A DNA stretch of 12,974 nt. Origin: a virus. Lineage: Duplodnaviria; Heunggongvirae; Uroviricota; Caudoviricetes. The stretch covers positions 1 to 12,974 of the IMG/VR virus record IMGVR_UViG_2648501669_000022, one strand, 5' to 3'. Below, piece by piece: positions 1 through 12,974 of the stretch. The translations under genes were made by a program, and so were the position numbers. Every line of letters begins with the position of its first letter. The stretch's first letter is position 1. A model generated the notes under the pieces. It was not told the origin of the DNA and did not search any database. It worked only from the letters and a program-made list of their open reading frames with translations.

Positions 1-1215
1 ATGCTGCTTTCAGACCTTGCCATCAGGCGCGCGAAGCCGAAAGAAAAGGCTTATACACTCAATGACGGTAACGGGCTTTCGTTGCTCATTGAGCCGAACG
101 GTTCGAAAGGGTGGCGACTGCGCTACAGGTTTGCAGGAAAGCCCAAAATGTTGTCGTTGGGTGTGTACCCTGATGTGTCTCTGTCTGATGCCAGGGCGGC
201 AAGGGATGAGGCTAAAAGGCTTCTTGCTGGTGGTATAAATCCAAGTGAGGCCAGAAAAGCCCAAAAGCGAGAACAGGCGAGCAAATTTGGCAATACTTTT
301 GAGGGTATTGCTCGTGAATGGTACGAAAAGCGGATCGACAGGTGGTCATCGTCATACGCCGAGGAAATGATCGAGACGTTTGAAAAAGATGTTTTTCCGT
401 ACATTGGCGGTAGGCCGATCGCAGAAATTAAGCCGATGGAATTGCTGGCGGTTCTTTCCCGTCTTAATGACCGTGGTGCGACTGAAAAATTGCGTAAGGT
501 TCGCCAGCGATGCGGCGAGGTGTTCCGGTACGCAATCATCACCGGACGCGCCGAATATAATCCAGCCCCTGACCTGGTGAGCGCATTTGCTCCACATAAA
601 AAAGAGCATTACGCCTATCTGAAGGCCGACGAACTGCCGGAATTTTTCCGCGTTTTTAATACGTACACCGGAAGCCAGATCGTCAAACTGGCAATGCGGC
701 TATTAATTCTGACAGGTGTCAGACCCGGGGAATTACGGCAGGCAGAATGGCAGGAGATCGATTTTGATAATCGTTTGTGGGAAGTGCCTAAAGAACGAAT
801 GAAGATGCGCCGTCCGCATTGTGTGCCATTACCAGAACAGGCGATAAAAATACTGGAGCAGTTAAAAAACATGACAGGCCAGTATCAGTTTATTTTCCCC
901 GGTCGTATTCACCACAGTAAGCCAATGAGTGAAATGGCGATGAATGTGCTCATTCGTCGTATCGGCTATGCCGGGCGCGTTACTGGTCATGGATTCCGGC
1001 ACACCATGAGCACCATTTTGCATGAGCAGGGCTATAACACTGCGTGGATAGAGACGCAGCTCGCACACGTCGATAAAAACTCAATTCGTGGCACATACAA
1101 CCATGCGCAATATCTGGATGGTCGCCGGGAGATGCTCCAGTGGTATGCCGACTATATGGATTCGCTCGAGCATGGCGGAAATGTGGTGCATGGTGAGTTC
1201 GGAAAATGCGGGTGA
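1..1215 (+). CDS. int: Tyrosine recombinase / integrase, P4-type
   Basis: 404-aa ORF. N-terminal arm-binding-like region (AKPKEKAYTLNDGNGLSLLIEPNGSKGWRLRYRFAGKPKMLSLGVYPDVSL) typical of P4-family integrases; C-terminal catalytic signature HGFRHT plus downstream Tyr (RGTYNHAQY). Stop TGA at 1213-1215. Confidence 0.9.
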   Translation: MLLSDLAIRRAKPKEKAYTLNDGNGLSLLIEPNGSKGWRLRYRFAGKPKMLSLGVYPDVSLSDARAARDEAKRLLAGGINPSEARKAQKREQASKFGNTFEGIAREWYEKRIDRWSSSYAEEMIETFEKDVFPYIGGRPIAEIKPMELLAVLSRLNDRGATEKLRKVRQRCGEVFRYAIITGRAEYNPAPDLVSAFAPHKKEHYAYLKADELPEFFRVFNTYTGSQIVKLAMRLLILTGVRPGELRQAEWQEIDFDNRLWEVPKERMKMRRPHCVPLPEQAIKILEQLKNMTGQYQFIFPGRIHHSKPMSEMAMNVLIRRIGYAGRVTGHGFRHTMSTILHEQGYNTAWIETQLAHVDKNSIRGTYNHAQYLDGRREMLQWYADYMDSLEHGGNVVHGEFGKCG

Positions 1216-1343
1216 CTGGTTGAGTATACAGTAGTAGACTTTGAGCGACGAAAGAAAAGGCTGTGTCTAGGGTCGCTCCCGAAAATCCGTACACCTCGAC
1301 GGACTGGTACAGCCACTACAGTAGAGGACGCTGAGGTGTGCGT

Positions 1344-2141
1344 ATGATTGATATTCATGCCGAATTAAACGAATACAAAAAAGATTTTATTTCTTTACGT
1401 GAATTTCTTGAGGTCGTGCTTAAGGTCGCTGGTGATGATTATGATGTTTCAGATGTCATAACTTGGATACTCAGGAGAATAAGCGGAGAACATATCCGCC
1501 TGTACACAGTAAATGAATTTAAGCTGTTGGAATCTTTTTGTAGCCCGTATCGGGATGAATTTGATTATGATGTTCTTTATAGAAATCTGAATGCGGTTCG
1601 GAAACGTGGTTGTTTACCTGGTGAGAGGGATGAAAATGGTTTTCTGGTGTCCGGTTATTGGGAAGATCCCGAATTTGAGAACATTGGATTTATAAGGGGT
1701 GAAATTTTCGCAATTTTTCCCGATGTCCTTGACGCGTTAACGAAGCTGGAAGGCGCTAACTCTTCTGAAAATGACGAGGCACAAGGACGCGATATTGAAA
1801 AGAAAGAGTTGCGTACAGAGGATGATTTATTATCCCAAATCGCAATGCTGGAAAAAGAAAACGCAGAGTTAAGGGCAAGGATAGAGCAGTTAGAGCAAGA
1901 GCGCCCGATACACTTATATAAATACTGGGATAAAGACCCATTAGCTAAGGCTATTGAGATTAGAAACAGAGAGTGGGCCAATTACGATCCAGAAAATGAT
2001 TTTGCCACCAGGGGAAATCAAGAAGCGATAACCAGGGAGCTTAAGCAGTGGGGGGCAAGTAATGCACTTGCAACGCTCATAGAGAGGACTGCCTGCCCTA
2101 TTAACCGAGACAACAGCCAAAAGAACGCAAAGCCGGATTAA
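1344..2141 (+). CDS. Hypothetical cargo protein (265 aa) with a central leucine-zipper-like coiled coil; function unknown
   Basis: ATG at 1344 with GAGGT 6 nt upstream (the track's 1338 start is a GTG lying on the SD). Visibly AT-richer codon usage than its neighbours. Heptad-like segment LLSQIAMLEKENAELRARIEQLEQER. Followed immediately by a strong intrinsic terminator. No catalytic motif recognised. Confidence 0.65.
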   Translation: MIDIHAELNEYKKDFISLREFLEVVLKVAGDDYDVSDVITWILRRISGEHIRLYTVNEFKLLESFCSPYRDEFDYDVLYRNLNAVRKRGCLPGERDENGFLVSGYWEDPEFENIGFIRGEIFAIFPDVLDALTKLEGANSSENDEAQGRDIEKKELRTEDDLLSQIAMLEKENAELRARIEQLEQERPIHLYKYWDKDPLAKAIEIRNREWANYDPENDFATRGNQEAITRELKQWGASNALATLIERTACPINRDNSQKNAKPD

Positions 2142-2154: not shown

Positions 2155-2197
2155 ATACCCTGAGGGTGATTTACTGTTACCCTCAGGGTATTTTTTT
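2155..2197 (+). terminator. Rho-independent terminator after the cargo gene
   Basis: Perfect 13-bp stem ATACCCTGAGGGT (2155-2167) / ACCCTCAGGGTAT (2179-2191), 11-nt loop, then a run of 7 T (2191-2197). Confidence 0.8.
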
Positions 2198-2214
2198 ATC
2201 TTCCCCGTCAATTT

Positions 2215-2302
2215 TACCATCACCCTTAGGGTAGATTTCCTCCCGATTACCATCACCCTTATGGTTAATTTCCTTCCGGTAACCATTAGGCCTGAGGGTA
2301 TG
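2215..2302. repeat. Tandem 33-bp direct repeat (2.6 copies) carrying ACCCT-N-AGGGT palindromes, upstream of alpA
   Basis: Unit 1 (2215-2247) and unit 2 (2248-2280) are 28/33 identical; partial third unit 2281-2302. Palindromes ACCCTTAGGGT (2222-2232), ACCCTTATGGT (2255-2265), CCTGAGGGT (2291-2299); the same palindrome forms both arms of the upstream terminator. Confidence 0.7.
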
Positions 2303-2368: not shown

Positions 2369-2566
2369 ATGTCAAATACGCTTATTCGTTTAACAGAAGT
2401 TCAGCGTAGAACTGGATATAGCAAGGCATGGATTTATCGCCTTATGGGGCAAGGTAAATTTCCTGCATCAGTTAAAATTGGCTCGCGAGCTATTGCTTTC
2501 GTTGAGAGTGAAATTGACGAGTGGATTAATCAGCGTATTGCGGAATCACGCGGAACAGCTACCTGA
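2369..2566 (+). CDS. alpA: AlpA-family (Xis/MerR-like HTH) transcriptional regulator
   Basis: 65 aa; RLTEVQRRTGYSKAWIYRLMGQGKFPASVKIGSRAIAFVESEIDEWINQR matches the AlpA/Vis-type signature found next to P4-family integrases. GAGG 7 nt upstream of the ATG. Confidence 0.85.
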   Translation: MSNTLIRLTEVQRRTGYSKAWIYRLMGQGKFPASVKIGSRAIAFVESEIDEWINQRIAESRGTAT

Positions 2567-2643: not shown

Positions 2644-3444
2644 ATGAAACTGCGAAAAACGCCCGTACAGGGGCAGGGCTTCGTTCGGCCTGAAAACCAG
2701 AATCTGCAAAATTTCGGCGAAATTATCCCGATTATTTCCGGCGTTATTGGCGGGAGTGAAACCACTATTGTTAGCGCCAGAGCGTTACATAAGGCGTTAG
2801 GTGTAGGGCGCGTTTTCCGTTCGTGGATCAAGGGGCGCATTGAAGAATACGGGTTCACGGAAGGCGTGGATTATGAGGTTGTTGAATATTTGAGCCGACC
2901 CGATCCGGTGAGCGCAAAATCTCGCCAGCAAACCGCTCTTGAGTACATCATCACAGTGAACATGGCGAAAGAACTGGCGATGGTCGAACGTACCGAACAG
3001 GGCCGCGCCGTTCGCCAGTACTTTATCAAATGCGAGGAGGAGCTACACAAGGTAGCGCCAGTGCGTTCCGCAGCGTTACGCCGGGAACTGAAAGCCCGTA
3101 TCACCGTTGCCAGCTACTTTAAGCCAATGTGTGCCGCGCTGGAGGCGTACCGGGCTGAACTGGGTAAAAACACGTTCCAGCACCACTACACCACGGAAGC
3201 CAATATGCTGGCGCGTATCGTGCTGGGTGGCATGACTGCAAAACAGTGGGCGCAGGCGAACGGCATCACAGGCGAACCACGCGACCACATGAGCACGTTG
3301 CAGCTTGAGCACCTTTCTTACCTTGAGCAGAGCAATATCACGCTGATTGAGTTAGGCCAGGGCTACCACCAGCGGAAAGCTGAATTAATTCGTCTTTCGC
3401 AGCGTTGGTTAGCCCGTCGCATGGAGGAAAACAGCCATGTGTAA
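2644..3444 (+). CDS. AntA/AntB-type antirepressor-like protein (N-terminal domain), C-terminal domain unknown
   Basis: 266 aa; N-terminal segment SARALHKALGVGRVFRSWIKGRIEEYGFTEGVDYEV resembles the AntA/AntB N-terminal domain as I remember it. AGGAG 5 nt upstream of the ATG. Confidence 0.6.
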   Translation: MKLRKTPVQGQGFVRPENQNLQNFGEIIPIISGVIGGSETTIVSARALHKALGVGRVFRSWIKGRIEEYGFTEGVDYEVVEYLSRPDPVSAKSRQQTALEYIITVNMAKELAMVERTEQGRAVRQYFIKCEEELHKVAPVRSAALRRELKARITVASYFKPMCAALEAYRAELGKNTFQHHYTTEANMLARIVLGGMTAKQWAQANGITGEPRDHMSTLQLEHLSYLEQSNITLIELGQGYHQRKAELIRLSQRWLARRMEENSHV

Positions 3445-3918: not shown

Positions 3919-4092
3919 TCAACCTTTTGGCACGATGCCTCGCTGTTGTAATTCTTTGCGGAGCACTCGTTTAATCCAGGTAGCTAATGAGGTGTCGCCG
4001 TCTGCTTTGGCTGCCTCCTCAAGTTGTGCCCTAAATTCTTCTGGTAGCCGCATTTGGTATGGTGGCGATCGTTTTTCTAATGGTGTTGACAT
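3919..4092 (-). CDS. Arc/MetJ-type ribbon-helix-helix DNA-binding protein (57 aa), not in the ORF track
   Basis: Translated by hand from the minus strand: MSTPLEKRSPPYQMRLPEEFRAQLEEAAKADGDTSLATWIKRVLRKELQQRGIVPKG. Beta-strand-like PYQMRLP followed by two helices is the Arc/Mnt pattern. The start codon is embedded in a palindromic operator. Confidence 0.65.
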   Translation of the reverse strand: MSTPLEKRSPPYQMRLPEEFRAQLEEAAKADGDTSLATWIKRVLRKELQQRGIVPKG

Positions 4093-4144
4093 GGTAATTA
4101 CCCATAATTACTATAGTTACACGGTAATTACCATTGTACTTACC
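4093..4144. promoter_or_regulatory. Divergent promoter/operator region: perfect 10-bp palindrome GGTAATTACC x2 plus a degenerate third site
   Basis: GGTAATTACC at 4093-4102 (abutting the Arc-like start codon) and 4123-4132, 30 bp centre to centre; degenerate copy GTACTTACC at 4136-4144; TATAGT-like -10 for the minus strand at 4111-4116. Confidence 0.55.
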
Positions 4145-4228: not shown

Positions 4229-4432
4229 ATGATAAATCATACCACACACCCGCAAGGGCGGGACTCGCACAACCTGAATAAATACATCTGGCGTTTTATC
4301 GCCCTGAGCACGGCACAACCGCGCGTAATTCACATCGAGGCCACCAGCGAACAGGAAGCACGCCAGCAATCTCCTGATGGCTGCGTGATGGTATTCGCCG
4401 CCCGTATTCGCCAGGAGGTGCACCATGCATAA
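4229..4432 (+). CDS. Hypothetical protein (67 aa), first gene of the replication operon
   Basis: This is only the 3' part of the 331-aa track ORF (3437-4432). ATG at 4229 with GAGGT 4 nt upstream; the upstream 800 nt of that ORF overlaps the Arc-like gene and the intergenic region and translates to low-complexity sequence. Stop overlaps the next start. Confidence 0.5.
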   Translation: MINHTTHPQGRDSHNLNKYIWRFIALSTAQPRVIHIEATSEQEARQQSPDGCVMVFAARIRQEVHHA

Positions 4433-4790
4433 CCTGTCAATTTCTGACCTTAACAGCATTCAGTTTGATGAGAAATTTACCGGGCAGCTACTGGTCAATG
4501 TGGAGAATGGACGCGTGGTAAGTAATTACCACCTGCCGGATGGTGCAATTGCCGGAAGTGTTGAAGCATTGCTGGAGCTGGCAGAACGTGCGCGACTGAT
4601 TAAGCCGTCAACGTGCCATCACGATGATGATCTGCATTTTACCGGACGCATGGTGAGTCACTACGAAAACGGCGTTGAGGTATCCCGCGAACGTATGCGT
4701 GATAATTGCTGTTTCGGAACACTGCCGGAATTTATCGAATTGCTGACCAGTTGCGGTTATCAGGTTATTCAGGGGGTGAATCATGGATAA
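4425..4790 (+). CDS. Hypothetical protein (121 aa) made of two tandem copies of a ~50-aa FTG-motif domain
   Basis: AGGAGGTG 4 nt upstream of the ATG. Internal repeat: FTGQLLVNVENGRVVSNYHL... and FTGRMVSHYENGVEVSRER.... Start and stop both overlap neighbouring genes. Confidence 0.6.
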   Translation: MHNLSISDLNSIQFDEKFTGQLLVNVENGRVVSNYHLPDGAIAGSVEALLELAERARLIKPSTCHHDDDLHFTGRMVSHYENGVEVSRERMRDNCCFGTLPEFIELLTSCGYQVIQGVNHG

Positions 4791-4983
4791 TCAGCAAGCA
4801 ACAATGACAATTACCCTGAGTGTGCCAGATGATTTCACCGGACGCGTACTGGTTTACCTGGATAAAGGGAAAGTGAAATCACAATGCCGACTGAAAAGTA
4901 ATGAGATTGTTGGTTCTCCTGAATTTTTTTCTGAACTTTGTATTCGTGCGAAAATAAAACCGGAACTGCTGACAGGAAAATAA
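4783..4983 (+). CDS. Hypothetical protein (66 aa), single-copy paralogue of the FTG-motif domain
   Basis: FTGRVLVYLDKGKVKSQCRL...GSPEFFSELCIRAKIKPE aligns with both repeats of the upstream gene; AGGGGGTGA upstream. Confidence 0.6.
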   Translation: MDNQQATMTITLSVPDDFTGRVLVYLDKGKVKSQCRLKSNEIVGSPEFFSELCIRAKIKPELLTGK

Positions 4984-4987
4984 AACC

Positions 4988-5278
4988 ATGAAAAAGAAAA
5001 ATTCTGGCTTTACTGCCAGCGGCCCCGCTCGGCCTGAAATCAGACACGGAGATATTTACCGCGACACCAGACGTGGGGGACGAGTGGTTATTCGTCACGT
5101 TACGCCAGGCAATATCACCTACCGCCGTGAGGCTTACGAATATGACTGCGTAATGCCGCGCCGTCAGTTTGAGCGTGATTTTATTCTGGTGGAAAACAAA
5201 CAACAGGCGGTGGCAAGACGTGCAGCCACGAATATTAAAAAAATCCGGGCAATGTTGGTTGCGGGAGGTAAGAAGTGA
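4988..5278 (+). CDS. Hypothetical basic protein (96 aa)
   Basis: ORF with AGGAAAA upstream; stop overlaps the GTG start of the helicase gene. No family recognised with confidence. Confidence 0.5.
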   Translation: MKKKNSGFTASGPARPEIRHGDIYRDTRRGGRVVIRHVTPGNITYRREAYEYDCVMPRRQFERDFILVENKQQAVARRAATNIKKIRAMLVAGGKK

Positions 5279-6687
5279 AAAACGCACCGAATTTGAAATA
5301 TCAGCCGAAGGATAAATTCACTGAGGTAATCATTTTTGCCGGGACGGACGCTTACTCCCATGCTCAACACTGGATTGAAAGCGAAGGACGGAAACACGGC
5401 GATAATGTGCCACCTGTTTACCTGGGGCCAAAGCAACTGGCAGACCTGGCGAATATCCGCATTATTGACGAGAAACGCCGCTTTGCACGTGTCTATCTCG
5501 CGGGGGAGATCGAACCAATCCAGATCAATGCTATCGCTGAAAAGCTGGCGCTGGCTGGCGTACAGGAGGCGAAATTATACAAAGGTATCACCGACCGGGA
5601 GCCGGAGAACTGGCGCGACTACCTGCAACGGATCCGCGAACAGGCAGAGCGCGAAGAAATGCTTACTGACGAGCAATACAGCCAGCGAAAAACCACACTA
5701 CCAATGAGTATTGGATCTGCAGGGTACGACACACAGCTTGATTATGTCGTTAAGGGCGTGATTCCGGCTAATTCATTGTGCAGCACATACGGCGCGAGCG
5801 GTTCCTATAAATCGTTCCTCGCGTGTTCCTGGGCGTGTCATGTTGCCACGGGTCGCCACTGGGGAGGCCGCAGGGTGGCGCATGGTTCGGTGATGTATGT
5901 CGTCGGTGAAGGTGGCATTGGTGTCCCTCGTCGTATCAAAGCATGGGAAATCGTTAATGATGAACGGGTGAAAAATCTGTACCTGGTAAACCGCCCGATT
6001 TTTCCGGCGGTCCCGCTTGATGTTGATGAAATGGTCATCGCTTCCCGTCAGGTTGAACGGGAAACGGGTAAACCGGTACGCATGATTATTCTGGATACGC
6101 TGGCGCGTTGCTTTGGCGGTAATGATGAAAATGACGCGCGGGATATGGGGGCGTTTATCCGTGGATGTGACGAACTGAAACGACGCACGGGGGCCACGGT
6201 ACTGGTGGTTCACCATTCCGGCAAGGATGAAACAAAAGGGGCGCGTGGTTCCAGTGCATTTCGTGCATCTCTGGACGCTGAATACCGTATTCGCCGTGAA
6301 GGTGCGGACAGTGAAGCCCTGGTTATCTCCTGCACCAAAATGAAGGACGCGGAGGAACTGAAAGAGGCTGCATATGATTTACGCGTGGTGGAGCTTTTTA
6401 CCGACACTGACGGGGAGTTAATCACGTCGCTGGTGGTTGTGGATAAGCCGCGCCCACCTGTTGAACTGGAACGCATCGAGGAGGCCGGGAACAAGACGGA
6501 AAATCACGCTGCGCTATGGCAGTGCATCAGAACGCGAACAGCACACGGGGAGGCGTGCACTATCGCCCTTCTCCGCGATGATATGAAAAAGCTGGGGTAT
6601 GAAATGAAAAACTTCCGGCGCTGGCTGTACAAGCTGGAAAGCGACGGCGTAATCGCTATTGACGGTGATTATGTGCGCCCACTGTAA
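5275..6687 (+). CDS. RepA/DnaB-like RecA-fold replicative helicase (the family I remember as AAA_25), probable replication initiator of the island
   Basis: 470 aa; GTG start with GGGAGGT 5 nt upstream. Walker A-like GASGSYKS, Walker B-like ILDTLARCF, and VLVVHHSGK motif typical of RepA-type helicases. Its stop abuts the iteron array. Confidence 0.8.
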   Translation: MKNAPNLKYQPKDKFTEVIIFAGTDAYSHAQHWIESEGRKHGDNVPPVYLGPKQLADLANIRIIDEKRRFARVYLAGEIEPIQINAIAEKLALAGVQEAKLYKGITDREPENWRDYLQRIREQAEREEMLTDEQYSQRKTTLPMSIGSAGYDTQLDYVVKGVIPANSLCSTYGASGSYKSFLACSWACHVATGRHWGGRRVAHGSVMYVVGEGGIGVPRRIKAWEIVNDERVKNLYLVNRPIFPAVPLDVDEMVIASRQVERETGKPVRMIILDTLARCFGGNDENDARDMGAFIRGCDELKRRTGATVLVVHHSGKDETKGARGSSAFRASLDAEYRIRREGADSEALVISCTKMKDAEELKEAAYDLRVVELFTDTDGELITSLVVVDKPRPPVELERIEEAGNKTENHAALWQCIRTRTAHGEACTIALLRDDMKKLGYEMKNFRRWLYKLESDGVIAIDGDYVRPL

Positions 6688-7075: not shown

Positions 7076-7153
7076 TAAAAAATTAGGAATGTTAAAAATG
7101 AAAACAGAATGTTGTGTCAGTGCCGTTGGGCAACGTAGCAATCAGTAAAAACG

Positions 7154-7696: not shown

Positions 7697-7980
7697 TTCA
7701 CGACAGCAAAGCGGAAGCACTGGAAGCGCGTGGTCTGTACCGGAGAGCGGCGGCGCGGTGGGCTGAGGTCATCATGCTGGCGAATGATGACAAGGCACGG
7801 GAACAGGCGGCAAAACGTCGCGCGGAATGTATCCGCAAGGCAGCACGCCCACCAGCAAGGCAGGATAATTTCGGGGAGATGCGCGAAACCATCAGCCGGG
7901 CACATGCCGGGATGGGATTACATCAGCCCAATGGTAAGGCATTCAGGAAATACCCTGGATCGAAAAATTGCAGTCAGTGA
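7693..7980 (+). CDS. PerC-family transcriptional activator-like protein
   Basis: 95 aa; N-terminus MIHDSKAEALEARGLYRRAAARWAEVIM fits the PerC/Pch pattern (E..G.WRRAA.RW) from memory. ATGA overlap with the upstream stop; followed by tandem terminators. Confidence 0.6.
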   Translation: MIHDSKAEALEARGLYRRAAARWAEVIMLANDDKAREQAAKRRAECIRKAARPPARQDNFGEMRETISRAHAGMGLHQPNGKAFRKYPGSKNCSQ

Positions 7981-8056: not shown

Positions 8057-8181
8057 CAGGTGATTGAAGTCAATGGGAAGAACGCGATCATCATGCGTTA
8101 TTGTTTCATAAATTGCAATGATGTAGATCGTCATTTCAGTTTGTGCAATCATAATCATTGTTTTGTTCAGGAGATATGACT

Positions 8182-8355
8182 ATGAGAAAAGCCAGCGTGA
8201 AACCCGTTTTACTCGCTCGTGAGCAGATTGAAGCATTACAGCGCATCCAGGACGAGGAACGCCGCAATTCTCCGCTGGGGATTGCTCCGAGCATTCATGA
8301 GGTCGCCCGGCGTTTAATGCAGCGGGCGCTTTATCCCGTAGAACGTCCGGCCTGA
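8182..8355 (+). CDS. Small hypothetical protein (57 aa), first gene of the late-like operon
   Basis: AGGAG (8169-8173) lies 8 nt upstream of the ATG at 8182; the track's 8158 start and the 8176 ATG have no usable SD spacing. Helical, charged sequence; possible small regulator. Confidence 0.5.
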   Translation: MRKASVKPVLLAREQIEALQRIQDEERRNSPLGIAPSIHEVARRLMQRALYPVERPA

Positions 8356-8394
8356 TGGTCGTGATTTTTTGGTGAAAAAAGAGAGGTGATAAAA

Positions 8395-8973
8395 ATGCCA
8401 GCAAGCAAAGAAGATTTGCGATTAAAACTGATGGAGGTGGTTAACGCTCTGTCAGAGTCGCAGGGCAGCACTCCGCAGGAGATTATCGAAATTCTGAATG
8501 CGATCCCCGCACAGGATTTCATAAAAGAGGATAACGCTAATCAAAACATCGTCGCGTCAGTCGAAGATGAATCCTCACTGGCAGAAGCCCAGGCTAAAGC
8601 AGATTCCGCATACAGCAATATGGGCCGTCGCGCTCCAGCCCCGTTTGCTGGTGAAAAGTCGATGGATTACCGCAAGCGTGCATTAATTGGTGCACAGAAG
8701 CTGGCTAAAAAATTCAGTGATGTGGATATTCGTTCCGTTTCAGATTCTGCAACGCTGGCGGTGCTGGAAGATCAGATTTACCAGGCTGCAAAAGACAGTG
8801 TTCAGTGGGCCGTGGAAAACACGCCGGGCCATTTGGGTAAAACCGTAAGAATGGATGAAGCTGGTCGTCGTATTACTGAATATCAGGGCGATCCGAACGT
8901 CTGGCTGAACGCCTTCAAAATCCCTCCCCGTCGCCTGGTCAAAATTAACACTGCAAGCCTCGCGGGGGCATGA
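8395..8973 (+). CDS. Hypothetical protein (192 aa), acidic helical N-terminal half
   Basis: ATG at 8395 with GAGAGGTG 6 nt upstream (the track's 8386 start is a GTG inside the SD). No family recognised. Confidence 0.6.
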   Translation: MPASKEDLRLKLMEVVNALSESQGSTPQEIIEILNAIPAQDFIKEDNANQNIVASVEDESSLAEAQAKADSAYSNMGRRAPAPFAGEKSMDYRKRALIGAQKLAKKFSDVDIRSVSDSATLAVLEDQIYQAAKDSVQWAVENTPGHLGKTVRMDEAGRRITEYQGDPNVWLNAFKIPPRRLVKINTASLAGA

Positions 8974-9037: not shown

Positions 9038-9709
9038 ATGCTTTTAACAGAAATTGAGGCGGCAAAGCAGATTCGGGACGGTCAGCTACCGTCGCCTTAT
9101 CAGTTTTCCAACATGTGGCTGGTTAACCTGCGTATTACAGGAACCGGTATGGCCTACCGCGCCGAAGAAAAAGAATTTGTCTGGCGTTCACCGCAAACTT
9201 ATCTCAATCCGCAGTTCCTGGAACGTTGCGCCGGAGTACCCGTCATTATCGACCATCCCGAAGGCAAAACCATTGAAGACGTTGGCGAACGGTCGCGCAT
9301 TATTGGCACCGTCATGTTGCCGTATATTCGCGGTGACGAGGTGTGGGGTGTATGCCGGATTTACGGGCAGGAAATCATCGATTACATCCAGAAAGCACGG
9401 GGGGAGGTATCCACCAGCCCGTCGGTTGTGTTTTGTGGTGCGTCCGGTGGGGCAGAAGTTCCTGATGTAATGGGCGAGGACAATTTTTTCATTGAGGGTA
9501 CGCCATTCCTTATCGATCACGTTGCGCTCGTGCCGCTTGGTGTTTGGGATAAGGGCGGGAAACCATCGGGTGTGGAGGTAACAACGCCGACAGCAGAAGA
9601 ACAGCTCGCCGGAATGGTCCGGGACGTTATTGATGCGGCCTGCAAGCCAGCCCTGGAAAAACTGGAAGAAATATCCGGGCGGCTGGCTCAACTGGAAAAA
9701 ACAGAGTGA
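9038..9709 (+). CDS. Hypothetical protein (223 aa); weak resemblance to HK97-type prohead proteases
   Basis: Size and a His (VPVIIDHPEG, residue 73) to Ser (GEVSTSP, residue 125) spacing of about 52 aa recall HK97-family prohead proteases; this is memory of motif shape only. C-terminus is coiled-coil-like. Confidence 0.55.
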   Translation: MLLTEIEAAKQIRDGQLPSPYQFSNMWLVNLRITGTGMAYRAEEKEFVWRSPQTYLNPQFLERCAGVPVIIDHPEGKTIEDVGERSRIIGTVMLPYIRGDEVWGVCRIYGQEIIDYIQKARGEVSTSPSVVFCGASGGAEVPDVMGEDNFFIEGTPFLIDHVALVPLGVWDKGGKPSGVEVTTPTAEEQLAGMVRDVIDAACKPALEKLEEISGRLAQLEKTE

Positions 9710-9716: not shown

Positions 9717-10334
9717 ATGAAAATTGCTAAAAACTTAAATCTGATTATCCCTGTGCGCACTGAAAAGGGAAATGGCTGGATCCATGCCACGCCGATCAGC
9801 AAAGAGGTGTTTAAAGAGCATTTCTTCATCCTGAGTAAAACCTTTTCTGCCATTTTTTCTGAAGGTCTTGGTGTTGTTGCGGGTCCGCGCGTTGCCTGCC
9901 TTATGCTGGAGAAAATCTCCCGTGACTCCGGTTTATGGGATGGGGAGAAAGGCATACGTAATACGCTCATAAACGAAATTATTCGCCTGGCAAACCTTGT
10001 TTATCCAGTGGAGGGCAAAGGCTACGACACAATCCCTCTCGATATGGCGCTGGAGCGTGAAATCGTTGATTTGGACGAAGTGGCGGGTGAACTTGTTTTT
10101 TTTACATGCGTCTCGTCGATAAATTCCCCGGAGCAGACGAAGGGGACTATGGATGCGGTGAATGGAATATGGAGCACTCAATGCTCGTCCTTGAGTCTTA
10201 CGGAATGGATCGCTTCATTGCCGACATTGAAGCCTGCCGTCAGTTCTGGCGCGACGGCGAACACGTCATCAGCGACATCCTCGACTACTCAGCCGGAGCC
10301 GGATTCAGAGACATCTGTGCAGATTCCGGTCTGA
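9717..10334 (+). CDS. Hypothetical protein; zero-frame ORF convincing only to about 10105, possible tail-assembly-chaperone-like gene
   Basis: GAGTGAG 6 nt upstream of the ATG. The first ~129 codons look protein-like; after the T8 run the zero frame becomes Ser/Thr-rich low complexity and loses the G-rich first codon position, which the -1 frame shows instead. Confidence 0.5.
   Translation: MKIAKNLNLIIPVRTEKGNGWIHATPISKEVFKEHFFILSKTFSAIFSEGLGVVAGPRVACLMLEKISRDSGLWDGEKGIRNTLINEIIRLANLVYPVEGKGYDTIPLDMALEREIVDLDEVAGELVFFTCVSSINSPEQTKGTMDAVNGIWSTQCSSLSLTEWIASLPTLKPAVSSGATANTSSATSSTTQPEPDSETSVQIPV
10097..10103 (+). other. Candidate -1 slippery heptamer T_TTT_TTT within a T8 run (10096-10103)
   Basis: Zero-frame codons are GTT TTT TTT. 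The -1 frame has a stop at 10088-10090, opens at 10091 and runs to 10399. Confidence 0.4.
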
Positions 10335-10399
10335 ATGTAAAAACAGCAGCTCAGTTTCGTGAGCTGCTCAAATTCAAGAATCCCGCAGGAGTATTGTAA
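10106..10399 (+). CDS. -1 frame ORF (97 codons from the ATG), likely translated as a frameshift extension of the upstream gene or as its own product
   Basis: Better codon-position bias than the overlapping zero frame; its stop overlaps the next start (TAATG at 10397-10401), indicating translational coupling to the 680-aa gene. Confidence 0.5.
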   Translation: MRLVDKFPGADEGDYGCGEWNMEHSMLVLESYGMDRFIADIEACRQFWRDGEHVISDILDYSAGAGFRDICADSGLNVKTAAQFRELLKFKNPAGVL

Positions 10400-12441
10400 T
10401 GTCAGGTAATCAGATGCCAGTTCTGACGCTGGACGTTAATGAAGAACACCTCAAACGGCTTGAGGCAATTTTTGAAAAGTATCGCAACGGGCTGATGATC
10501 GGCCCTGCAGGAACGCCGATGAAAATACCGGGGCAAAGTGGGCGCAGCGTGGGGGCAGGCTTACCCGTGGCGGCAAAATCTGGTCGGACAGGACCGGATG
10601 TATCCGGGAGAGTGAGGGACGAAAAAGGGCGCTTTGTCGGCAGTGGAAAAACAGCAGATTCGTTCGTAAGCAACTATAAAGGTCGCGGCGAAACGATGTT
10701 TGATAAGTATCTCAGCGGGCTGGGGAAAAATGCCCAACAGACGCTGAAAACTTACAAGCAGATCAATTCTACGCTACAGACGACCACTTCGAGATTAAAC
10801 AACCTGTTTAAAACAACCGTATCGTGGGGGACAAAACTTGCGGTTATGGGCGTTGCCGGGCCGTTTGGCTTTGGCATGATGTCTCGTAGTGTTGTAGAGA
10901 AACAGAAAAATGCAGATGAGCTGGTGGCAACGCCGGGAGAATTAAAGGCGGCAGAGAGTACCTATTCACCTTATTTTTCCGGTGTTGGCAATGTGCTCAA
11001 TACACTGGCAGCCGCGCAAAATGATCAAGAACACCCCGCCCGCGTTGGCCTGCTTCATCTGGGGATTAATCCTGATAAAAACGCGACTGAAAACCTGCCT
11101 GTATTCCTGAAAAAGGTTGCAGAGCTGGCAAAGGAATATCAGGGAAGTGGTCTTACCCAGAGTATGCTCAGGGGAAGAGGGCTTGGATGGGTAAATTTTG
11201 GTCTTACTAACCAGTTAGTCAAATATCAGGACAAAATACCTGAACTCAACAAAGAGTTTTCGTTACGTGCAGCGCAGAATGATTCGTTACTGACCTCTGC
11301 ACATACAAGTAAATATCAGAATCTTACCAGTAACCTGGAAAAAAACTGGGATCGGCTTACCAGCGGATTTCAGGGAGCAATGGCGGGGAATGAAGACGCT
11401 TTAATCAGAATGTCTGATGGTACCACGAATGCTGCCCTGAATTTCATGAATGGTGAGAACTTTAAAAGGATTCTGACTGATGTTGAAACGGGGCTGGATA
11501 AACTTGGTAAGTACGTTAATGGCCCGGATTTTAATAACGACCTGAACAATTTTGCCGAAAACGTTGCAAAGGTCACCAAGGCACTTAGCGGATTTGTTGG
11601 TTTTGCCGTTGAACATCCCTGGCTTTTTGGGGCCGCAGTGCTTGCGGGGCCATCAAGAGTTGGTGCCGTGGCAGCCACAACAACCGGAGTTGCCGCTCGT
11701 GTTGTCGGTGGAAGTCTTCTTGGGGCTACAGCCGGAACAGTAGCAGGATTGGCTATTCCTACAAATAACACACCTACCACCAGTGAGGAAATGAAAGGGC
11801 TGGAGGGGCGTTTCAACTTTGATTATTTTAACGAAGTGCAGGAGTGGCAAAAAAACAATCCGGGTAAGGTCTGGCCTGGAGGATTGCAGGGATTTTCAAA
11901 TCAAGTAAACAGATCTGCATATTTATCCAGAGGGATCAGGAATAACAATCCCGGAAATCTTAATTTCGCAGGACAAAAAGGGGCTACCCTGGAATCGGGG
12001 CCAAATGCCCGTTTTGCCAGCTTCCCGACGATGCTGGAAGGCATTGCTGCCTTAGATCGGCAGGTAATGCTATACCTGAAACGCGGCAAAAATACGATTG
12101 ATCAGATCATTGATATTTATGCCCCTTCATCTGATGGAAATAACACATCGTCCTATAAAAGCTATCTCTCTCAGTACACCGGTTTAGGTGTTAAGGAGAA
12201 AATTGATGGTTCTAATTTTGAGGTCATGAAAAAGCTAATTCAGGGCATTATTAACCATGAAAATGGTGCTGCCGCTAAAGCTGTAAGTGTTGAAGATGTG
12301 ATCCGGGCGCTGGCTATGAATCGTGGGATTGTCCCTACAGCAGGAAATAATAATCAGAACGTTAAGCTTGATATTCTTCAAAAACCAGGCTCCGACATAG
12401 TCGCTCAACTGGCCGGATTTTCGGGGCTTATGCCGAGGTAA
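10399..12441 (+). CDS. Large tape-measure-like protein (680 aa) with Gly/Ala-rich hydrophobic segments and a C-terminal NNPGN-motif domain
   Basis: AGGAG 7 nt upstream of the ATG. Central segment AVEHPWLFGAAVLAGPSRVGAVAATTTGVAARVVGGSLLGATAGTVAGLAIP; N/T/S/K-rich helical regions; C-terminal RGIRNNNPGNLNF...IYAPSSDGNN. The gene itself is well supported; the function is a guess. Confidence 0.7.
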   Translation: MSGNQMPVLTLDVNEEHLKRLEAIFEKYRNGLMIGPAGTPMKIPGQSGRSVGAGLPVAAKSGRTGPDVSGRVRDEKGRFVGSGKTADSFVSNYKGRGETMFDKYLSGLGKNAQQTLKTYKQINSTLQTTTSRLNNLFKTTVSWGTKLAVMGVAGPFGFGMMSRSVVEKQKNADELVATPGELKAAESTYSPYFSGVGNVLNTLAAAQNDQEHPARVGLLHLGINPDKNATENLPVFLKKVAELAKEYQGSGLTQSMLRGRGLGWVNFGLTNQLVKYQDKIPELNKEFSLRAAQNDSLLTSAHTSKYQNLTSNLEKNWDRLTSGFQGAMAGNEDALIRMSDGTTNAALNFMNGENFKRILTDVETGLDKLGKYVNGPDFNNDLNNFAENVAKVTKALSGFVGFAVEHPWLFGAAVLAGPSRVGAVAATTTGVAARVVGGSLLGATAGTVAGLAIPTNNTPTTSEEMKGLEGRFNFDYFNEVQEWQKNNPGKVWPGGLQGFSNQVNRSAYLSRGIRNNNPGNLNFAGQKGATLESGPNARFASFPTMLEGIAALDRQVMLYLKRGKNTIDQIIDIYAPSSDGNNTSSYKSYLSQYTGLGVKEKIDGSNFEVMKKLIQGIINHENGAAAKAVSVEDVIRALAMNRGIVPTAGNNNQNVKLDILQKPGSDIVAQLAGFSGLMPR

Positions 12442-12446
12442 TACCC

Positions 12447-12974
12447 ATGCTAATGAGTAAAGCAGAATATGCTAAACACAAAGGCGTAAGCCGCCAGACA
12501 GTTTACGACTGGATCGAGAAAGGCGAAGTGGTCATGTCCGGTAAAAAAATCGATGTGGAAGCGACAGAGCAGCGGAACAGCCCACCAGCACAGGAAAAAG
12601 ACACAGTTTCTGAAATGTGGCCAGAGAGAACGCTGGAAATGACGTGGGGCGAGTTCTGGAAAGCAGTTAAGGCCAGAGACGGTAAAATCCCTGCACCAGT
12701 AACGGACGATGACATACAGCAGCGTGTGCAGGATGCAGCCGGGGAATTAGGCTGGGAAGTGCACTTTCTTGATGATGGTGCTATCTGCCTTGAGGATGAT
12801 GAAGGGCAGCATTACTTTGAAAAATACAATTTGCGAGGTAATGCCAGGCTGGCAATTCGTATGCTGCGTTGCGAACTCTGCTATGTTGCAGGTGATTATC
12901 CCGATGAACTGGAATCATGGAGTGAAGCCGGGCTAAACGCCCTGGCTGAATGGGAAAAATCAGGCCATCAATGA
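12447..12974 (+). CDS. HTH protein (175 aa) with a Nu1-like small-terminase N-terminal signature; candidate TerS or packaging-redirection factor
   Basis: GAGGT 7 nt upstream of the ATG. N-terminus SKAEYAKHKGVSRQTVYDWIEKGEVVMSGKKIDVEA parallels lambda Nu1 (KKQLADIFGASIRTIQNWQEQGMPVLRGGGKGNEVLYDSAA) from memory. Acidic C-terminal half. Stop TGA is the last codon of the window. Confidence 0.45.
   Translation: MLMSKAEYAKHKGVSRQTVYDWIEKGEVVMSGKKIDVEATEQRNSPPAQEKDTVSEMWPERTLEMTWGEFWKAVKARDGKIPAPVTDDDIQQRVQDAAGELGWEVHFLDDGAICLEDDEGQHYFEKYNLRGNARLAIRMLRCELCYVAGDYPDELESWSEAGLNALAEWEKSGHQ

What the first reader, a model, noticed from the sequence alone, without database searches (positions are those of the whole stretch)
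1..12974. Architecture as a whole: PICI-like early region joined to a tail-gene-like late operon
The int, alpA, RHH repressor, RepA-like helicase and iteron layout matches satellite islands, but the late-like operon lacks recognisable capsid-size-redirection genes and instead shows a frameshift-chaperone-like gene, a tape-measure-like gene and a Nu1-like gene. Either this is an undescribed satellite lineage with a different parasitic strategy, or a highly reduced prophage or mosaic. Nearly every gene is co-oriented and tightly coupled, suggesting an intact, functional element rather than a decaying remnant.
Basis: inference. Interest (0 to 1): 0.6.

Follow-up and report, generated by a model that had tools for sequence, protein, structure and literature searches.

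The report
Phage satellite carrying tail tape-measure genes
This is an E. coli phage satellite (a PICI-type island) that, unusually, carries its own copies of four of its probable helper phage's virion-assembly genes, including the tail tape-measure protein, which current satellite definitions assume satellites never have.

Summary
The window is almost a whole ~14 kb integrative satellite. It lacks only its att sites and about 0.95 kb after the last gene. Its early region is a backbone of which parts match in 2006 of 5426 complete E. coli genomes: P4-type integrase, int-alpA RNA, AlpA, AntA, Arc-like repressor, Icd-like, DUF4222, RepA-type helicase with an iteron origin, ProQ/FinO and PerC.

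The late operon consists of diverged copies of virion genes of Rac-type myophages:
- a scaffold-like protein and a stand-alone prohead protease, which are one fused gene in the phages
- a tail assembly chaperone with a conserved T8 -1 frameshift site
- a 680-aa tape-measure protein with an endolysin-like domain
- a winged-helix protein of unknown role.

No capsid, portal, terminase, sheath, tube, baseplate or lysis genes are present.

The chaperone-TMP pair is a rare 2.7 kb cassette, found in about 12-14 of the 5426 genomes and under purifying selection. It is also the one hypervariable unit of the helper phage lineage. Tape-measure genes recur in related satellites of Citrobacter and Pantoea.

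However, capsid-morphogenesis genes are present, the backbone is already known, and the Nu1 call is only a fold-class resemblance. I rate this a new variant of a known kind. What the tape-measure gene does for the satellite is inferred, not shown.

The parts
1..1215 (+). P4-type tyrosine integrase (404 aa)
   Evidence: Pfam Arm-DNA-bind_3, Phage_int_M and Phage_integrase. In the relative L001 it lies 165 bp after tRNA-Gly, whose 3' 18 nt are repeated as attR.
1260..1327 (+). int-alpA RNA motif (Rfam RF02996)
   Evidence: cmscan 45.5 bits against a gathering score of 35.8, E 7e-7, full-length match.
1338..2141 (+). Conserved 267-aa protein of unknown function, followed by a strong terminator hairpin at 2155-2191
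   Evidence: No Pfam, NCBIfam or PADLOC hit. Conserved in sibling satellites. Terminator scan.
2214..2279 (.). Two tandem 33-nt repeats upstream of alpA (candidate regulatory site)
   Evidence: the repeat finder family D2, 85% identity; also present in L001.
2369..2566 (+). AlpA-family regulator/excisionase
   Evidence: Pfam Phage_AlpA E 2e-19. PHROG 'excisionase and transcriptional regulator'.
2644..3444 (+). AntA/AntB-type antirepressor
   Evidence: Pfam AntA E 2.5e-23. 41% identical over aa 26-153 to the antirepressor of phage Rac-SA53.
3919..4092 (-). Arc-like ribbon-helix-helix repressor, the only minus-strand gene
   Evidence: Pfam Arc E 0.006. PHROG 228 'Arc-like repressor' E 1e-6.
4086..4132 (+). 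Promoter-like site (TTGACA-17-TACTAT) overlapped by two 14-nt repeats ACAYGGTAATTACC (candidate operators)
   Evidence: Promoter scan. The repeat finder family D8.
4229..4432 (+). Icd-like small protein, first gene of the rightward early operon
   Evidence: PHROG 6196 E 1e-43. PGAP names the homologue 'host cell division inhibitor Icd-like'.
4425..5278 (+). Three small early genes: two phrog_340 paralogues (4425-4790, 4783-4983) and a DUF4222 protein (4988-5278)
   Evidence: Starts and stops overlap or lie 4 nt apart.
5275..6687 (+). RepA-like AAA_25 helicase/initiator (470 aa). In sibling satellites this slot holds a D5-type primase or a DUF927 protein.
   Evidence: Pfam AAA_25 E 3e-44. PHROG helicase/primase hits. 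Siblings.
6685..7080 (.). Iteron-type replication origin: at least 8 copies of AAAAGTGAGGA in both orientations in a 41% GC stretch
   Evidence: the repeat finder families D1, D3, D4 and I1-I5. Sequence. Composition.
7154..7696 (+). ProQ/FinO-family RNA-binding protein
   Evidence: Pfam ProQ E 7e-24.
7693..7980 (+). PerC-family transcriptional activator, followed by a terminator hairpin at 8020-8050
   Evidence: Pfam PerC E 2e-32. Terminator scan.
8158..8355 (+). Small protein (57-65 aa) that always precedes the scaffold-like gene, also in Klebsiella, Pantoea and Citrobacter satellites. Function unknown.
   Evidence: No family hit. 65-75% identical homologues in the same position in L015-L019.
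8386..8973 (+). Scaffold-like protein. Residues 61-189 are homologous to the C-terminal domain of the phage protease-scaffold fusion; the N-terminal 60 aa are satellite-specific.
   Evidence: PHROG 6216 positions 409-545 of 545, E 7e-47. 65% identical to the C-terminus of Rac-SA53 rac43. dN/dS 0.12-0.24. The PGAP name 'NUDIX hydrolase' has no Pfam support.
9038..9709 (+). Stand-alone prohead (capsid maturation) protease, DUF2213
9717..10334 (+). Tail assembly chaperone, 0-frame product (205 aa)
   Evidence: 83-86% identical to the gene between the tail tube and tape-measure genes of Rac-type myophages.
10091..10399 (+). -1 frame extension of the chaperone. The slippery T8 run lies at 10096-10103. 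The predicted frameshift product is 227 aa.
   Evidence: The -1 frame opens 5 nt before the T8 run. The run sits at the same offset (379) in 9 of 10 phage and satellite copies, and the extension is 75-79% identical in the phages.
10399..12441 (+). Tape-measure protein (680 aa) with a C-terminal endolysin-like peptidoglycan-hydrolase domain
   Evidence: Full-length 70% identity to phage pPE4 and 85% to the EC11 prophage tape-measure protein. PHROG 2276 'tail length tape measure protein' and PHROG 7182 'tail injection transglycosylase'. PDB endolysin 7q47 E 2e-11. dN/dS 0.13-0.20 among the closely related satellite copies.
12447..12974 (+). Last gene of the operon: 175-aa protein with an N-terminal winged HTH (Xis/TerS-N/Rpp fold class) and an unmatched C-terminal alpha/beta domain. 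Candidate packaging-specificity factor.

Best explanation
The window is a PICI-type phage satellite, about 14.3 kb with its att sites. Its probable helpers are Rac-type temperate myophages of E. coli.

Shown:
- It has a complete satellite backbone: integrase, AlpA, an Arc-like repressor facing a promoter with two operators, a RepA-type helicase with an iteron origin, ProQ/FinO and PerC.
- It has no capsid, portal, terminase, sheath, tube, baseplate or lysis genes.
- Four of the six genes of its late operon are diverged homologues of virion-assembly genes of Rac-type phages. The small first gene and the last gene have no phage homologue.
- The phage's single protease-scaffold gene is represented by two separate genes in reversed order.
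- The chaperone (with its -1 frameshift) and the tape-measure protein form a 2.7 kb cassette that sibling satellites lack.
- That same gene pair is the only hypervariable unit in the helper phage lineage.

Inferred:
- After helper induction, AlpA activates excision and the early operon. AntA may derepress the helper. RepA replicates the element from the iterons.
- The late operon then remodels helper assembly. The stand-alone scaffold-like protein and protease act on helper capsid protein, probably to make capsids suited to a genome about 0.3 times the helper's size.
- The satellite's chaperone and tape-measure protein enter helper tails. Particles then carry the satellite's tape-measure allele, with its own peptidoglycan-hydrolase domain, instead of the helper's. 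This would change DNA-delivery properties or avoid exclusion aimed at the helper's allele.
- The last protein, together with the adjacent GTGTCAA repeat array, directs packaging to satellite DNA.
For: Backbone and limits:
- Gene families. Iterons.
- The att repeat TTCCCTTCGCCCGCTCCA lies at the tRNA-Gly 3' end and 14,248 bp downstream in the 97% identical relative. Nothing structural lies between the window's end and attR.
- Some part of the window matches in 2006 of 5426 complete E. coli genomes.
- A satellite with the same gene set transferred between strains in the mouse gut, in a strain carrying the active prophage KingRac (PMC12251178).

Helper link:
- tblastn ties the four late genes to contiguous head and tail genes of Rac-SA53 and pPE4.
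- The phage module is annotated as TerS, portal, protease, major head protein and sheath.
- At least 6 of about 12 cassette-bearing genomes also hold a Rac-type prophage; in the one inspected (ETEC1716) it looks complete. Only 93 of 5426 genomes have that tail region at all (hypergeometric p about 1e-8).
- 5 of 17 IMG/VR satellite contigs come from genomes that also yielded a Rac-type phage contig.
- In Pantoea agglomerans a sibling satellite abuts a Rac-type head module.

Chaperone: the T8 slip site and the -1 ORF are conserved in phages and satellites.

Selection and spread of the cassette:
- dN/dS is 0.13-0.20 for the tape-measure gene among the closely related satellite copies and 0.14-0.17 for the chaperone.
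- The cassette occurs with three integrase/att modules and three replication modules.

Hypervariability:
- Two Rac-type prophages are 93-100% identical in 14 virion proteins, but 81.5% in the chaperone and 46% in the tape-measure protein.
- Over about 60 phage loci the median identity is 95-100% for all other genes, 86% for the chaperone and 42% for the tape-measure protein.
- In ETEC1716 the satellite's tape-measure protein is 41% identical to that of the co-resident prophage.

Recurrence: satellites in Citrobacter and Pantoea stewartii carry tape-measure genes in a different operon position. Those two proteins are 71-75% identical to each other and about 42% identical to the resident Pantoea prophage's.
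Against: - No experiment links this element to any helper.
- Four cassette-bearing genomes (ETEC4077, ETEC4079, ETEC1749, STEC346) have no Rac-type tail region, and the Rac site at ttcA is empty in ETEC4077.
- Co-occurrence counts are inflated by related porcine ETEC isolates from one study.
- Purifying selection could partly reflect divergence imported by recombination from phage alleles rather than selection inside satellites.
- Nothing shows that the satellite's tape-measure protein is incorporated into tails. Nothing shows that any exclusion system targets this protein in these phages.
- No shared pac or cos sequence was found between satellite and phage.
- The last protein has no sequence relation to RppC, to the Rac-type TerS, or to any solved structure.
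- Capsid size redirection is inferred only from the genome-size ratio and from analogy.
- Most sibling satellites do without the cassette, so it is accessory.
Confidence: 0.6

Rival explanations
1. Interference rather than self-service. The satellite's chaperone and tape-measure protein act as poison or decoy subunits that spoil tail assembly of the helper or of competing Rac-type phages. This would be a defence or interference function for the host and island, not a component of the satellite's own infectious particles.
For: - PICIs commonly interfere with helper assembly, and tail-assembly blocking by mobile elements is known (the Tai and Tab systems, papers listed).
- The N-terminal 150 aa of the satellite's protein stay 80-90% identical to the helper's, while the rest is 20-45% identical. 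That is a plausible decoy design.
- Defence cargo sits at the right end of sibling satellites.
Against: - The satellite needs working tails for its own spread.
- The same tape-measure allele family (85-90% identical) is the native allele of 22 of 60 sampled Rac-type phages whose tube, sheath and baseplate genes are near-identical. It is therefore an assembly-competent allele.
- The frameshift chaperone is kept intact, which makes sense for productive assembly.
Confidence: 0.17
2. Neutral hitch-hiker. The cassette is a recent by-product of recombination between a satellite and a nearby Rac-type prophage. It has no function in the satellite and will decay.
For: - The cassette is 88% identical in nucleotides to prophage copies, whereas the head genes are only 65-68% identical.
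- In several genomes the satellite sits only 6 kb from the Rac prophage.
- The cassette is rare, in 12-14 of 5426 genomes.
- One copy (RM9088) has T7 instead of T8 and is annotated as frameshifted.
Against: - ORFs are intact in at least 11 genomes.
- dN/dS is 0.13-0.20 at dS up to 0.25 between satellite copies.
- The junctions are seamless (7 nt and 5 nt), with no tube or baseplate gene fragments.
- The cassette occurs with three att/int modules and three replication modules.
- Satellite copies form their own group, 93-99% identical to each other in nucleotides but no more than about 90% identical in protein to any sampled phage copy.
- Tape-measure genes were retained independently in Citrobacter and Pantoea satellites.
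Confidence: 0.12
3. Reduced or defective prophage: a decayed Rac-type phage that has kept a few late genes.
For: Late genes are homologous to Rac-type phage genes. Automated tools often call such islands incomplete prophages (PMC11773190).
Against: - None of the early genes has a counterpart in the Rac-type phage records examined, apart from the antirepressor domain.
- The integrase, AlpA, primase/RepA, ProQ and PerC backbone is shared with thousands of small islands that lack structural genes.
- The split, order-swapped protease and scaffold arrangement is found only in satellites. All 20-odd phage-type loci across bacterial phyla keep the fused gene.
- The element is bounded by att repeats 14.25 kb apart.
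Confidence: 0.03

Closest known systems
Gram-negative PICIs of E. coli (EcCICFT073 type; Fillol-Salom 2018 PMC6092414; Rpp, Fillol-Salom 2019 PMC6739421)
   Same: - Integrase, AlpA, a replication gene with an adjacent origin, and PerC allelic variants.
- Size of about 12-15 kb, with no lysis genes.
- A late module that contains homologues of helper head proteins (EcCICFT073 has capsid and decoration homologues).
- A small winged-HTH protein next to the packaging site.
   Different: - The helper type is a Rac-type myophage rather than lambda/phi80.
- The head genes are a protease and a scaffold-like protein, not a capsid homologue.
- The last protein is not a sequence relative of RppA or RppC, and its C-terminal domain differs.
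- Tail genes are present.
EcCIMP1 (Pick, Stadel & Raivio 2025, PMC11773190)
   Same: - An experimentally mobilised E. coli PICI with integrase, AlpA, antirepressor, primase and PerC.
- Its authors report that genes downstream of the primase resemble 'DNA transfer' proteins and share similarity with hypothetical proteins of its podophage helper Kapi1. If those are the helper's DNA-ejection proteins, as I recall for P22-like phages, this would be the functional counterpart of a tape-measure protein. I did not test that.
   Different: The helper morphotype and the genes are different. No tape-measure protein, chaperone or protease is described. The element is 20 kb and sits at tRNA-Thr. I did not compare the sequences directly.
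Putative satellite transferred in the mouse gut (PLoS Genet 2025, PMC12251178)
   Same: The same backbone gene set: integrase, AlpA, DUF4222, DUF927 primase, SSB, ProQ, PerC, and a MerR/Nu1-like HTH protein hitting phrog_57. It was found in a strain with the active Rac-type prophage KingRac, which the authors propose as a possible helper.
   Different: The authors describe it as lacking any capsid or tail genes. No DUF2213 or tape-measure hit appears in its annotation table.
Capsid-forming PICIs (cf-PICI; Alqurainy 2023; de Sousa 2023 PMC10085698)
   Same: The same kind of left arm. Both carry structural genes, including a prohead protease.
   Different: cf-PICIs encode the capsid protein, portal and head-tail adaptors and take only tails from the helper. 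This element encodes no capsid protein or portal, and it does encode tail-assembly genes, which is close to the reverse.
SaPI1 CpmB and phage P4 Sid (satellite scaffolds that redirect capsid size)
   Same: The logic is similar: a satellite-encoded scaffold-type protein that shares the helper scaffold's capsid-binding end. This comparison rests on my own knowledge of Dearborn et al. 2017, which I did not read here.
   Different: There is no sequence relation. Size redirection has not been shown here. This satellite also brings its own protease.
Tail assembly chaperones with programmed -1 frameshift (lambda G/GT, P2 E/E+E')
   Same: The gene lies immediately upstream of the tape-measure gene. 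It has a homopolymeric slippery run, and the -1 ORF opens at the slip site and ends at the tape-measure start codon.
   Different: It is encoded by a satellite instead of a phage. Frameshifting has not been measured.

Membership tests
PICI (Gram-negative, AlpA type) | Integrase at one end; element bounded by att repeats at a specific site | tested here: met
   Integrase at 1-1215. In the 97% identical relative L001, an 18-bp repeat of the tRNA-Gly 3' end lies 14,248 bp apart. The window itself does not include the att sites.
PICI (Gram-negative, AlpA type) | alpA regulator downstream of int, co-oriented | tested here: met
   Pfam Phage_AlpA E 2e-19 at 2369-2566.
PICI (Gram-negative, AlpA type) | Own replication initiator or primase with an adjacent iteron origin | tested here: met
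   AAA_25 RepA-like protein at 5275-6687. At least 8 iterons at 6685-7080. Function not tested.
PICI (Gram-negative, AlpA type) | Size about 10-15 kb, roughly one third of the helper genome | tested here: met
   14.25 kb in L001, against 47.5-52 kb for Rac-type phage records.
PICI (SatelliteFinder model, de Sousa 2023) | No tail or holin genes ('forbidden components') | tested here: not met
   No holin is present. A tail assembly chaperone and a tape-measure protein are present. The paper states that tail and holin profiles lead to rejection (PMC10085698). I did not run SatelliteFinder itself.
PICI (Gram-negative, AlpA type) | Helper-dependent induction, packaging and high-frequency transfer | not testable with these tools
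   Indirect only: co-occurrence with Rac-type prophages, and in vivo transfer of a backbone relative (PMC12251178).
cf-PICI | Own major capsid protein, portal, head-tail adaptor and connector | tested here: not met
   None of the 18 ORFs matches these families. tblastn with Rac-type portal and capsid proteins finds nothing in the full-length relative L001.
P4-like satellite | psu-delta-sid operon, epsilon, alpha primase | tested here: not met
   No Pfam or PHROG hit to these proteins. Only integrase, AlpA and an Icd-like protein are shared.
Tail assembly chaperone (G/GT type) | Gene directly upstream of the tape-measure gene, with a slippery site and a -1 ORF that extends to the tape-measure start | tested here: met
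   T8 run at 10096-10103; -1 frame open from 10091 to 10399; conserved in 9 of 10 phage and satellite copies. Frameshifting efficiency is not testable here.
Tape-measure protein | Orthology to the gene between the chaperone and baseplate genes of a tailed phage; long protein with Gly/Ala-rich hydrophobic segments; optional peptidoglycan-hydrolase domain | tested here: met
   70-85% full-length identity to the Rac-type phage gene in that position. PHROG 2276. Endolysin-like domain. Hydrophobic segments are visible in the translation.
Prohead maturation protease (HK97 / T4 gp21 / assemblin fold) | Fold, conserved catalytic His and Ser, and a gene position between portal and capsid genes in the phage | tested here: met
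Rpp (redirecting phage packaging) proteins | N-terminal wHTH plus a C-terminal helical dimerisation domain that binds the helper TerS | tested here: inconclusive
Terminase small subunit (Nu1/TerS) | DNA-binding domain plus an oligomerisation core and a TerL-binding tail | tested here: inconclusive
   Only residues 1-42 hit TerS PHROG 57 (E 1e-7). There is no similarity to the Rac-type TerS. In Klebsiella, Pantoea agglomerans and Citrobacter siblings the same operon slot holds TerS-like proteins with clear family hits (Pfam Sf6_terminase; PHROG TerS families tested in the Klebsiella locus).

The most novel reading that the evidence does not exclude
This satellite family equips helper virions with satellite-encoded DNA-delivery proteins. 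For myophage helpers that is a tape-measure protein (with its chaperone); for podophage helpers it may be the ejection-type proteins suggested for EcCIMP1. Transducing particles would then carry a different allele of the one virion protein that is hypervariable in the helper lineage. This would let satellite DNA enter cells, including lysogens of the helper type, that exclude or poorly support the helper's own tape-measure allele. It would be the first case of a satellite remodelling the tail and injection machinery rather than the capsid or the packaging specificity.
Probability: 0.3. Interest if true: 0.8.

Novelty: new variant of a known kind. Interest (0 to 1): 0.62.

Why it matters
- Satellite catalogues are built on the rule that tail genes mark phages, not satellites. 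SatelliteFinder rejects candidates that carry tail profiles (PMC10085698). Elements like this one are therefore systematically missed or mislabelled as defective prophages.
- Known satellite strategies act on capsid size, packaging specificity or helper gene expression. A satellite that supplies the tape-measure protein would add the tail and DNA-injection step to that list.
- The cassette is the one hypervariable unit of Rac-type phages. The system therefore offers a testable route to what drives tape-measure diversification, whether exclusion, host factors or defence.
- Several carrier strains are complete-genome isolates that hold both partners, which makes them a natural place to start experiments.
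- The result also gives a concrete helper candidate for a very common E. coli island family. That family carries PerC-type virulence regulators and defence cargo.

Tried and rejected
- I looked for a Rac prophage at ttcA in ETEC4077, the closest complete relative. The site is empty, and the DNA beyond attR is an unrelated prophage remnant followed by a type III secretion gene cluster (ETT2, by my reading).
- Sequence search of the last protein against the PDB gave nothing. Comparison with the Rac-type TerS gave nothing.
- blastn of the whole satellite against four phage loci found no shared pac- or cos-like segment outside the late genes and two short antirepressor-region matches.
- PADLOC found no defence family in the unknown early genes or the last gene.
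- The late module of the O104:H4 sibling satellite has no PHROG hits. The idea that every variant late module is recognisably helper-derived could therefore not be generalised.
- The Tai tail-interference paper and the helper-embedded satellite paper do not mention satellite tape-measure, protease or scaffold genes.
- A literature search for DUF2213 gave nothing relevant.
- The PGAP label 'NUDIX hydrolase' for the scaffold-like gene was rejected. It has no NUDIX Pfam hit, and the name probably comes from distant DUF2213-NUDIX fusion proteins.
- The 331-aa ORF at 3437-4432 was rejected as a gene. It has no family hit, it overlaps the Arc-like gene, and only its last 67 codons (the Icd-like gene) are annotated in relatives.

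Full report
WHAT IS IN THE WINDOW

The 12,974-bp window starts at the ATG of an integrase gene and ends at the stop codon of the last gene of a long rightward gene array.

Family searches identify the early genes:
- P4-type tyrosine integrase, 1-1215
- AlpA, 2369-2566
- AntA-type antirepressor, 2644-3444
- Arc-like RHH repressor, 3919-4092, the only minus-strand gene
- Icd-like protein, 4229-4432
- two phrog_340 paralogues and a DUF4222 protein, 4425-5278
- RepA-like AAA_25 helicase, 5275-6687
- ProQ/FinO protein, 7154-7696
- PerC activator, 7693-7980

Between repA and proQ lies an AT-rich stretch with at least 8 copies of AAAAGTGAGGA in both orientations. This is the classic layout of an iteron origin.

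A promoter-like site at 4086-4114 is overlapped by two 14-nt repeats and faces the Arc-like gene. Strong terminator hairpins follow the 267-aa unknown gene (2155-2191) and perC (8020-8050). Rfam places the curated int-alpA RNA motif at 1260-1327, above its gathering score.

LIMITS OF THE ELEMENT

The window is E. coli DNA. Its best relatives, at 97-98% identity, are islands in porcine ETEC chromosomes.

In strain ETEC4077 the island starts 165 bp after a tRNA-Gly gene. The last 18 nt of that tRNA (TTCCCTTCGCCCGCTCCA) recur 14,248 bp downstream, about 0.95 kb after the gene that ends the window. That 0.95 kb holds only a 59-aa ORF and a repeat array.

The complete element is therefore about 14.3 kb. 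It has no capsid, portal, terminase, sheath, tube, baseplate or lysis genes.

What lies beyond attR is an unrelated prophage remnant and a type III secretion gene cluster, which I read as the ETT2 island.

THE LATE OPERON IS MADE OF HELPER-TYPE VIRION GENES

The late proteins match PHROG families of unknown function, plus weaker hits to head maturation protease and tape-measure families. A translated search of phage genomes gave the key link. Escherichia phage Rac-SA53 and 'Actinobacillus' phage pPE4 are both Rac-type temperate myophages, and both carry homologues.

Direct comparison shows:
- Residues 61-189 of the 195-aa protein are 65% identical to the C-terminal domain of the phage gene rac43.
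- The 223-aa DUF2213 protein is 53% identical to the N-terminal half of the same phage gene.
- The 205-aa protein is 83-86% identical to the gene between the tail tube and the tape-measure gene.
- The overlapping 97-codon ORF is 75-79% identical to a -1 ORF in the phages.
- The 680-aa protein is 70% identical over its full length to the pPE4 tape-measure protein.

The phage module around these genes reads TerS, TerL, portal, head morphogenesis protein, DUF2213 protein, a 205-aa protein, major head protein, connectors, sheath, tube, chaperone, tape-measure protein, baseplate and fibres.

Three further points support these assignments:
- The tape-measure C-terminus carries an endolysin-like domain (PDB 7q47, E 2e-11).
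- The chaperone has a T8 run at 10096-10103. The -1 frame opens 5 nt before it and closes at the tape-measure start. The run lies at the same offset in all phage copies and in all satellite copies but one. The predicted products are 205 aa and 227 aa.

The statement that capsid-morphogenesis genes are missing is wrong.

WHAT IS SATELLITE-SPECIFIC

In every phage-type locus recovered, the protease and its C-terminal domain are one gene of about 430-440 aa. These loci come from Enterobacterales, Burkholderiaceae, Alphaproteobacteria and Acidobacteria, among others.

In satellites the domains are two genes in reversed order, preceded by a conserved 57-65-aa gene. The satellite versions are uniformly about 54% identical (protease) and 65% identical (aligned scaffold part) to all 60-odd sampled phage versions. 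The phage versions are about 98% identical to each other. This is an old, specialised divergence.

A stand-alone scaffold-like protein keeps the helper's C-terminal domain but has a new N-terminus. That is the design used by known size-redirecting satellites. I infer, but have not shown, that it remodels helper capsids for a genome about 0.3 times the helper's.

THE CHAPERONE AND TAPE-MEASURE CASSETTE

Sibling satellites with the same backbone go directly from the protease gene to the last gene, with a 6-nt spacer. An example is ARS-C101, at tRNA-Thr. In the window a 2.7 kb chaperone plus tape-measure unit sits there, with 7-nt and 5-nt junctions and no fragments of neighbouring phage genes.

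Distribution and selection:
- Only 12-14 of 5426 complete E. coli genomes have the cassette in a satellite.
- It is 88% identical in nucleotides to prophage copies, against 65-68% for the head genes.
- It occurs with three integrase/att modules (tRNA-Gly, abgR-smrA, and the RM9088 site).
- It occurs with three replication modules: D5-type primase, DUF927 and RepA.
- dN/dS among satellite copies is 0.13-0.20 for the tape-measure gene (closely related copies) and 0.14-0.17 for the chaperone, at dS up to 0.25.
- Three of 17 satellite contigs in IMG/VR carry it, one with a different tape-measure allele.

THE SAME UNIT IS THE HYPERVARIABLE SPOT OF THE PHAGE LINEAGE

Two Rac-type prophages (EC11 and ETEC1716) are 93-100% identical in 14 virion proteins. 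They are 81.5% identical in the chaperone and 46% in the tape-measure protein.

Over about 60 IMG/VR phage loci, the median identity to EC11 is 95-100% for every head and tail gene. It is 86% for the chaperone and 42% for the tape-measure protein.

The window's tape-measure protein belongs to an allele family found in 22 of 60 phages, at 85-90% identity.

In ETEC1716 the satellite lies 6 kb from an apparently complete Rac prophage. That prophage's tape-measure protein is only 41% identical to the satellite's. The first 150 residues are conserved (80-90%) and the rest diverges (20-45%).

RECURRENCE IN OTHER GENERA

Satellites with the same late triad (small gene, scaffold-like gene, protease) occur in Klebsiella aerogenes, Pantoea agglomerans, Citrobacter sp. 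NCU1 and Pantoea stewartii.

The Citrobacter and P. stewartii elements each carry a tape-measure gene upstream of the triad. P. stewartii also carries a homologue of the baseplate-region gene rac56. These two tape-measure proteins are 71-75% identical to each other. They are about 42% identical to the tape-measure protein of the Rac-type prophage in the same P. stewartii genome. They share the endolysin-like domain type with the window's protein.

Retention in different operon positions argues against an accident.

HELPER CANDIDATE

Several observations point to Rac-type phages:
- Only 93 of 5426 genomes have the Rac-type tail region. At least 6 of about 12 cassette-bearing genomes hold a full copy of it elsewhere in the chromosome (p about 1e-8, not corrected for relatedness of the isolates).
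- Five IMG/VR satellite contigs come from genomes that also yielded a Rac-type phage contig.
- In P. agglomerans the satellite directly abuts a Rac-type head module.
- A satellite with the same backbone gene set moved between E. coli strains in the mouse gut, in a strain carrying the active prophage KingRac (PMC12251178).

Against a strict dependence, four carriers have no such prophage.

THE LAST GENE

The 175-aa protein has no phage homologue. It is conserved in satellites that carry unrelated late modules and is widespread in Enterobacterales.

Immediately downstream, outside the window, lies an array of at least 7 GTGTCAA motifs. The array is conserved at 90-93% in those other satellites and is absent from the phages.

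In the Klebsiella, P. agglomerans and Citrobacter relatives the same operon slot holds TerS-like proteins with clear family hits.

A packaging-specificity role is the best guess. 'Nu1-like' as a family assignment is not supported.

COMPARISON WITH WHAT IS KNOWN, AND VERDICT

All the sequence-level defining features of Gram-negative PICIs are met except one: the absence of tail genes. [quoted passage not shown]

The element is not a cf-PICI, because it has no capsid protein, portal or adaptors. It is not P4-like, because it has no psu, delta or sid.

The nearest conceptual parallel is EcCIMP1. Its authors report that its post-primase genes resemble 'DNA transfer' proteins and are similar to proteins of its podophage helper.

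I found no paper describing a satellite-encoded tape-measure protein or tail chaperone.

The finding is therefore a new variant of a known kind:
- The anatomy and the evolutionary pattern are well supported.
- The identity of the helper is probable.
- The function of the satellite's tape-measure gene is inference. The candidates are allele switching for DNA delivery or for evading exclusion, interference with helper tails, or no function at all.

Noticed in passing
window 1260-1327 (+): Rfam int-alpA RNA motif (RF02996) scores above its gathering threshold. It lies between the integrase stop and the 267-aa unknown gene.
   Followed up: partly
window 2155-2279: A 16-bp-stem terminator hairpin (TACCCTGAGGGT / ACCCTCAGGGTA) is followed by two tandem 33-nt repeats that contain the related word ACCCTTAGGGTA, just upstream of alpA. 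It looks like a repeated binding site and is also present in L001.
   Followed up: no
L001 25127-25460 (first 330 nt after the window's last gene; outside the window): An array of at least 7 GTGTCAA motifs, the first two forming an inverted pair, plus three TAAG-N-TAAGG repeats. It is conserved at 90-93% in satellites with other late modules and absent from Rac-type phages. Candidate pac/cosB-like site or operator for the 175-aa wHTH protein.
   Followed up: partly
L007 vs L012; L061-L123: In Rac-type myophages the tape-measure gene (median 42% identity) and its chaperone (86%) are the only hypervariable virion genes. All the others have medians of 95-100%. The N-terminal ~150 aa of the tape-measure protein stay conserved. 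This suggests diversifying selection or cassette exchange at the DNA-delivery protein.
   Followed up: yes
L014 11001-11617 (E. coli RM9088): The satellite's chaperone gene has T7 instead of T8 in the slippery run, so it is annotated 'frameshifted'. The change swaps which product is in frame. It could be a sequencing error or a homopolymer switch.
   Followed up: partly
L016 1-20666 (Pantoea agglomerans): A sibling satellite ends about 0.5 kb before the portal gene of a Rac-type head module. Two TerS-like satellite genes sit where the phage terminase genes would be. It may be a helper-embedded satellite. The phage terS and terL were not located.
   Followed up: no
L019 8296-9315 (Pantoea stewartii): This satellite carries a homologue (50% identity) of the phage baseplate-region protein rac56, in addition to a tape-measure gene. 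It is a second kind of tail gene in a satellite. An IS66 element has disrupted its left arm.
   Followed up: partly
L006 14145-16101; L014 16348-24245: The right ends of sibling satellites carry defence cargo. In O104:H4 HUSEC2011 it is an AAA ATPase plus a DUF4435 protein (PARIS-like, by my reading). Downstream of the RM9088 satellite lie a type I restriction-modification system and AbiE.
   Followed up: no
window 8386-8973 and homologues: RefSeq names this gene 'NUDIX hydrolase' and names the protease 'TolA'. Neither name has domain support. The NUDIX name probably spreads from distant DUF2213-NUDIX fusion proteins seen in metagenomes.
   Followed up: partly
window 4425-4983: Two adjacent early genes (121 aa and 66 aa) both match phrog_340, which indicates a tandem duplication. 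Sibling satellites have one to three copies.
   Followed up: no
L009 2770-3705 (ETEC4077 ttcA region): The canonical Rac attachment site next to ttcA is empty in the strain whose satellite is closest to the window. That carrier has no resident Rac-type helper.
   Followed up: yes
L060 (IMG/VR metagenome contig 3300015157_000114): A satellite with the same layout has a different tape-measure allele (64% identity), with the chaperone at 86%. Allele exchange therefore also occurs among satellites.
   Followed up: partly
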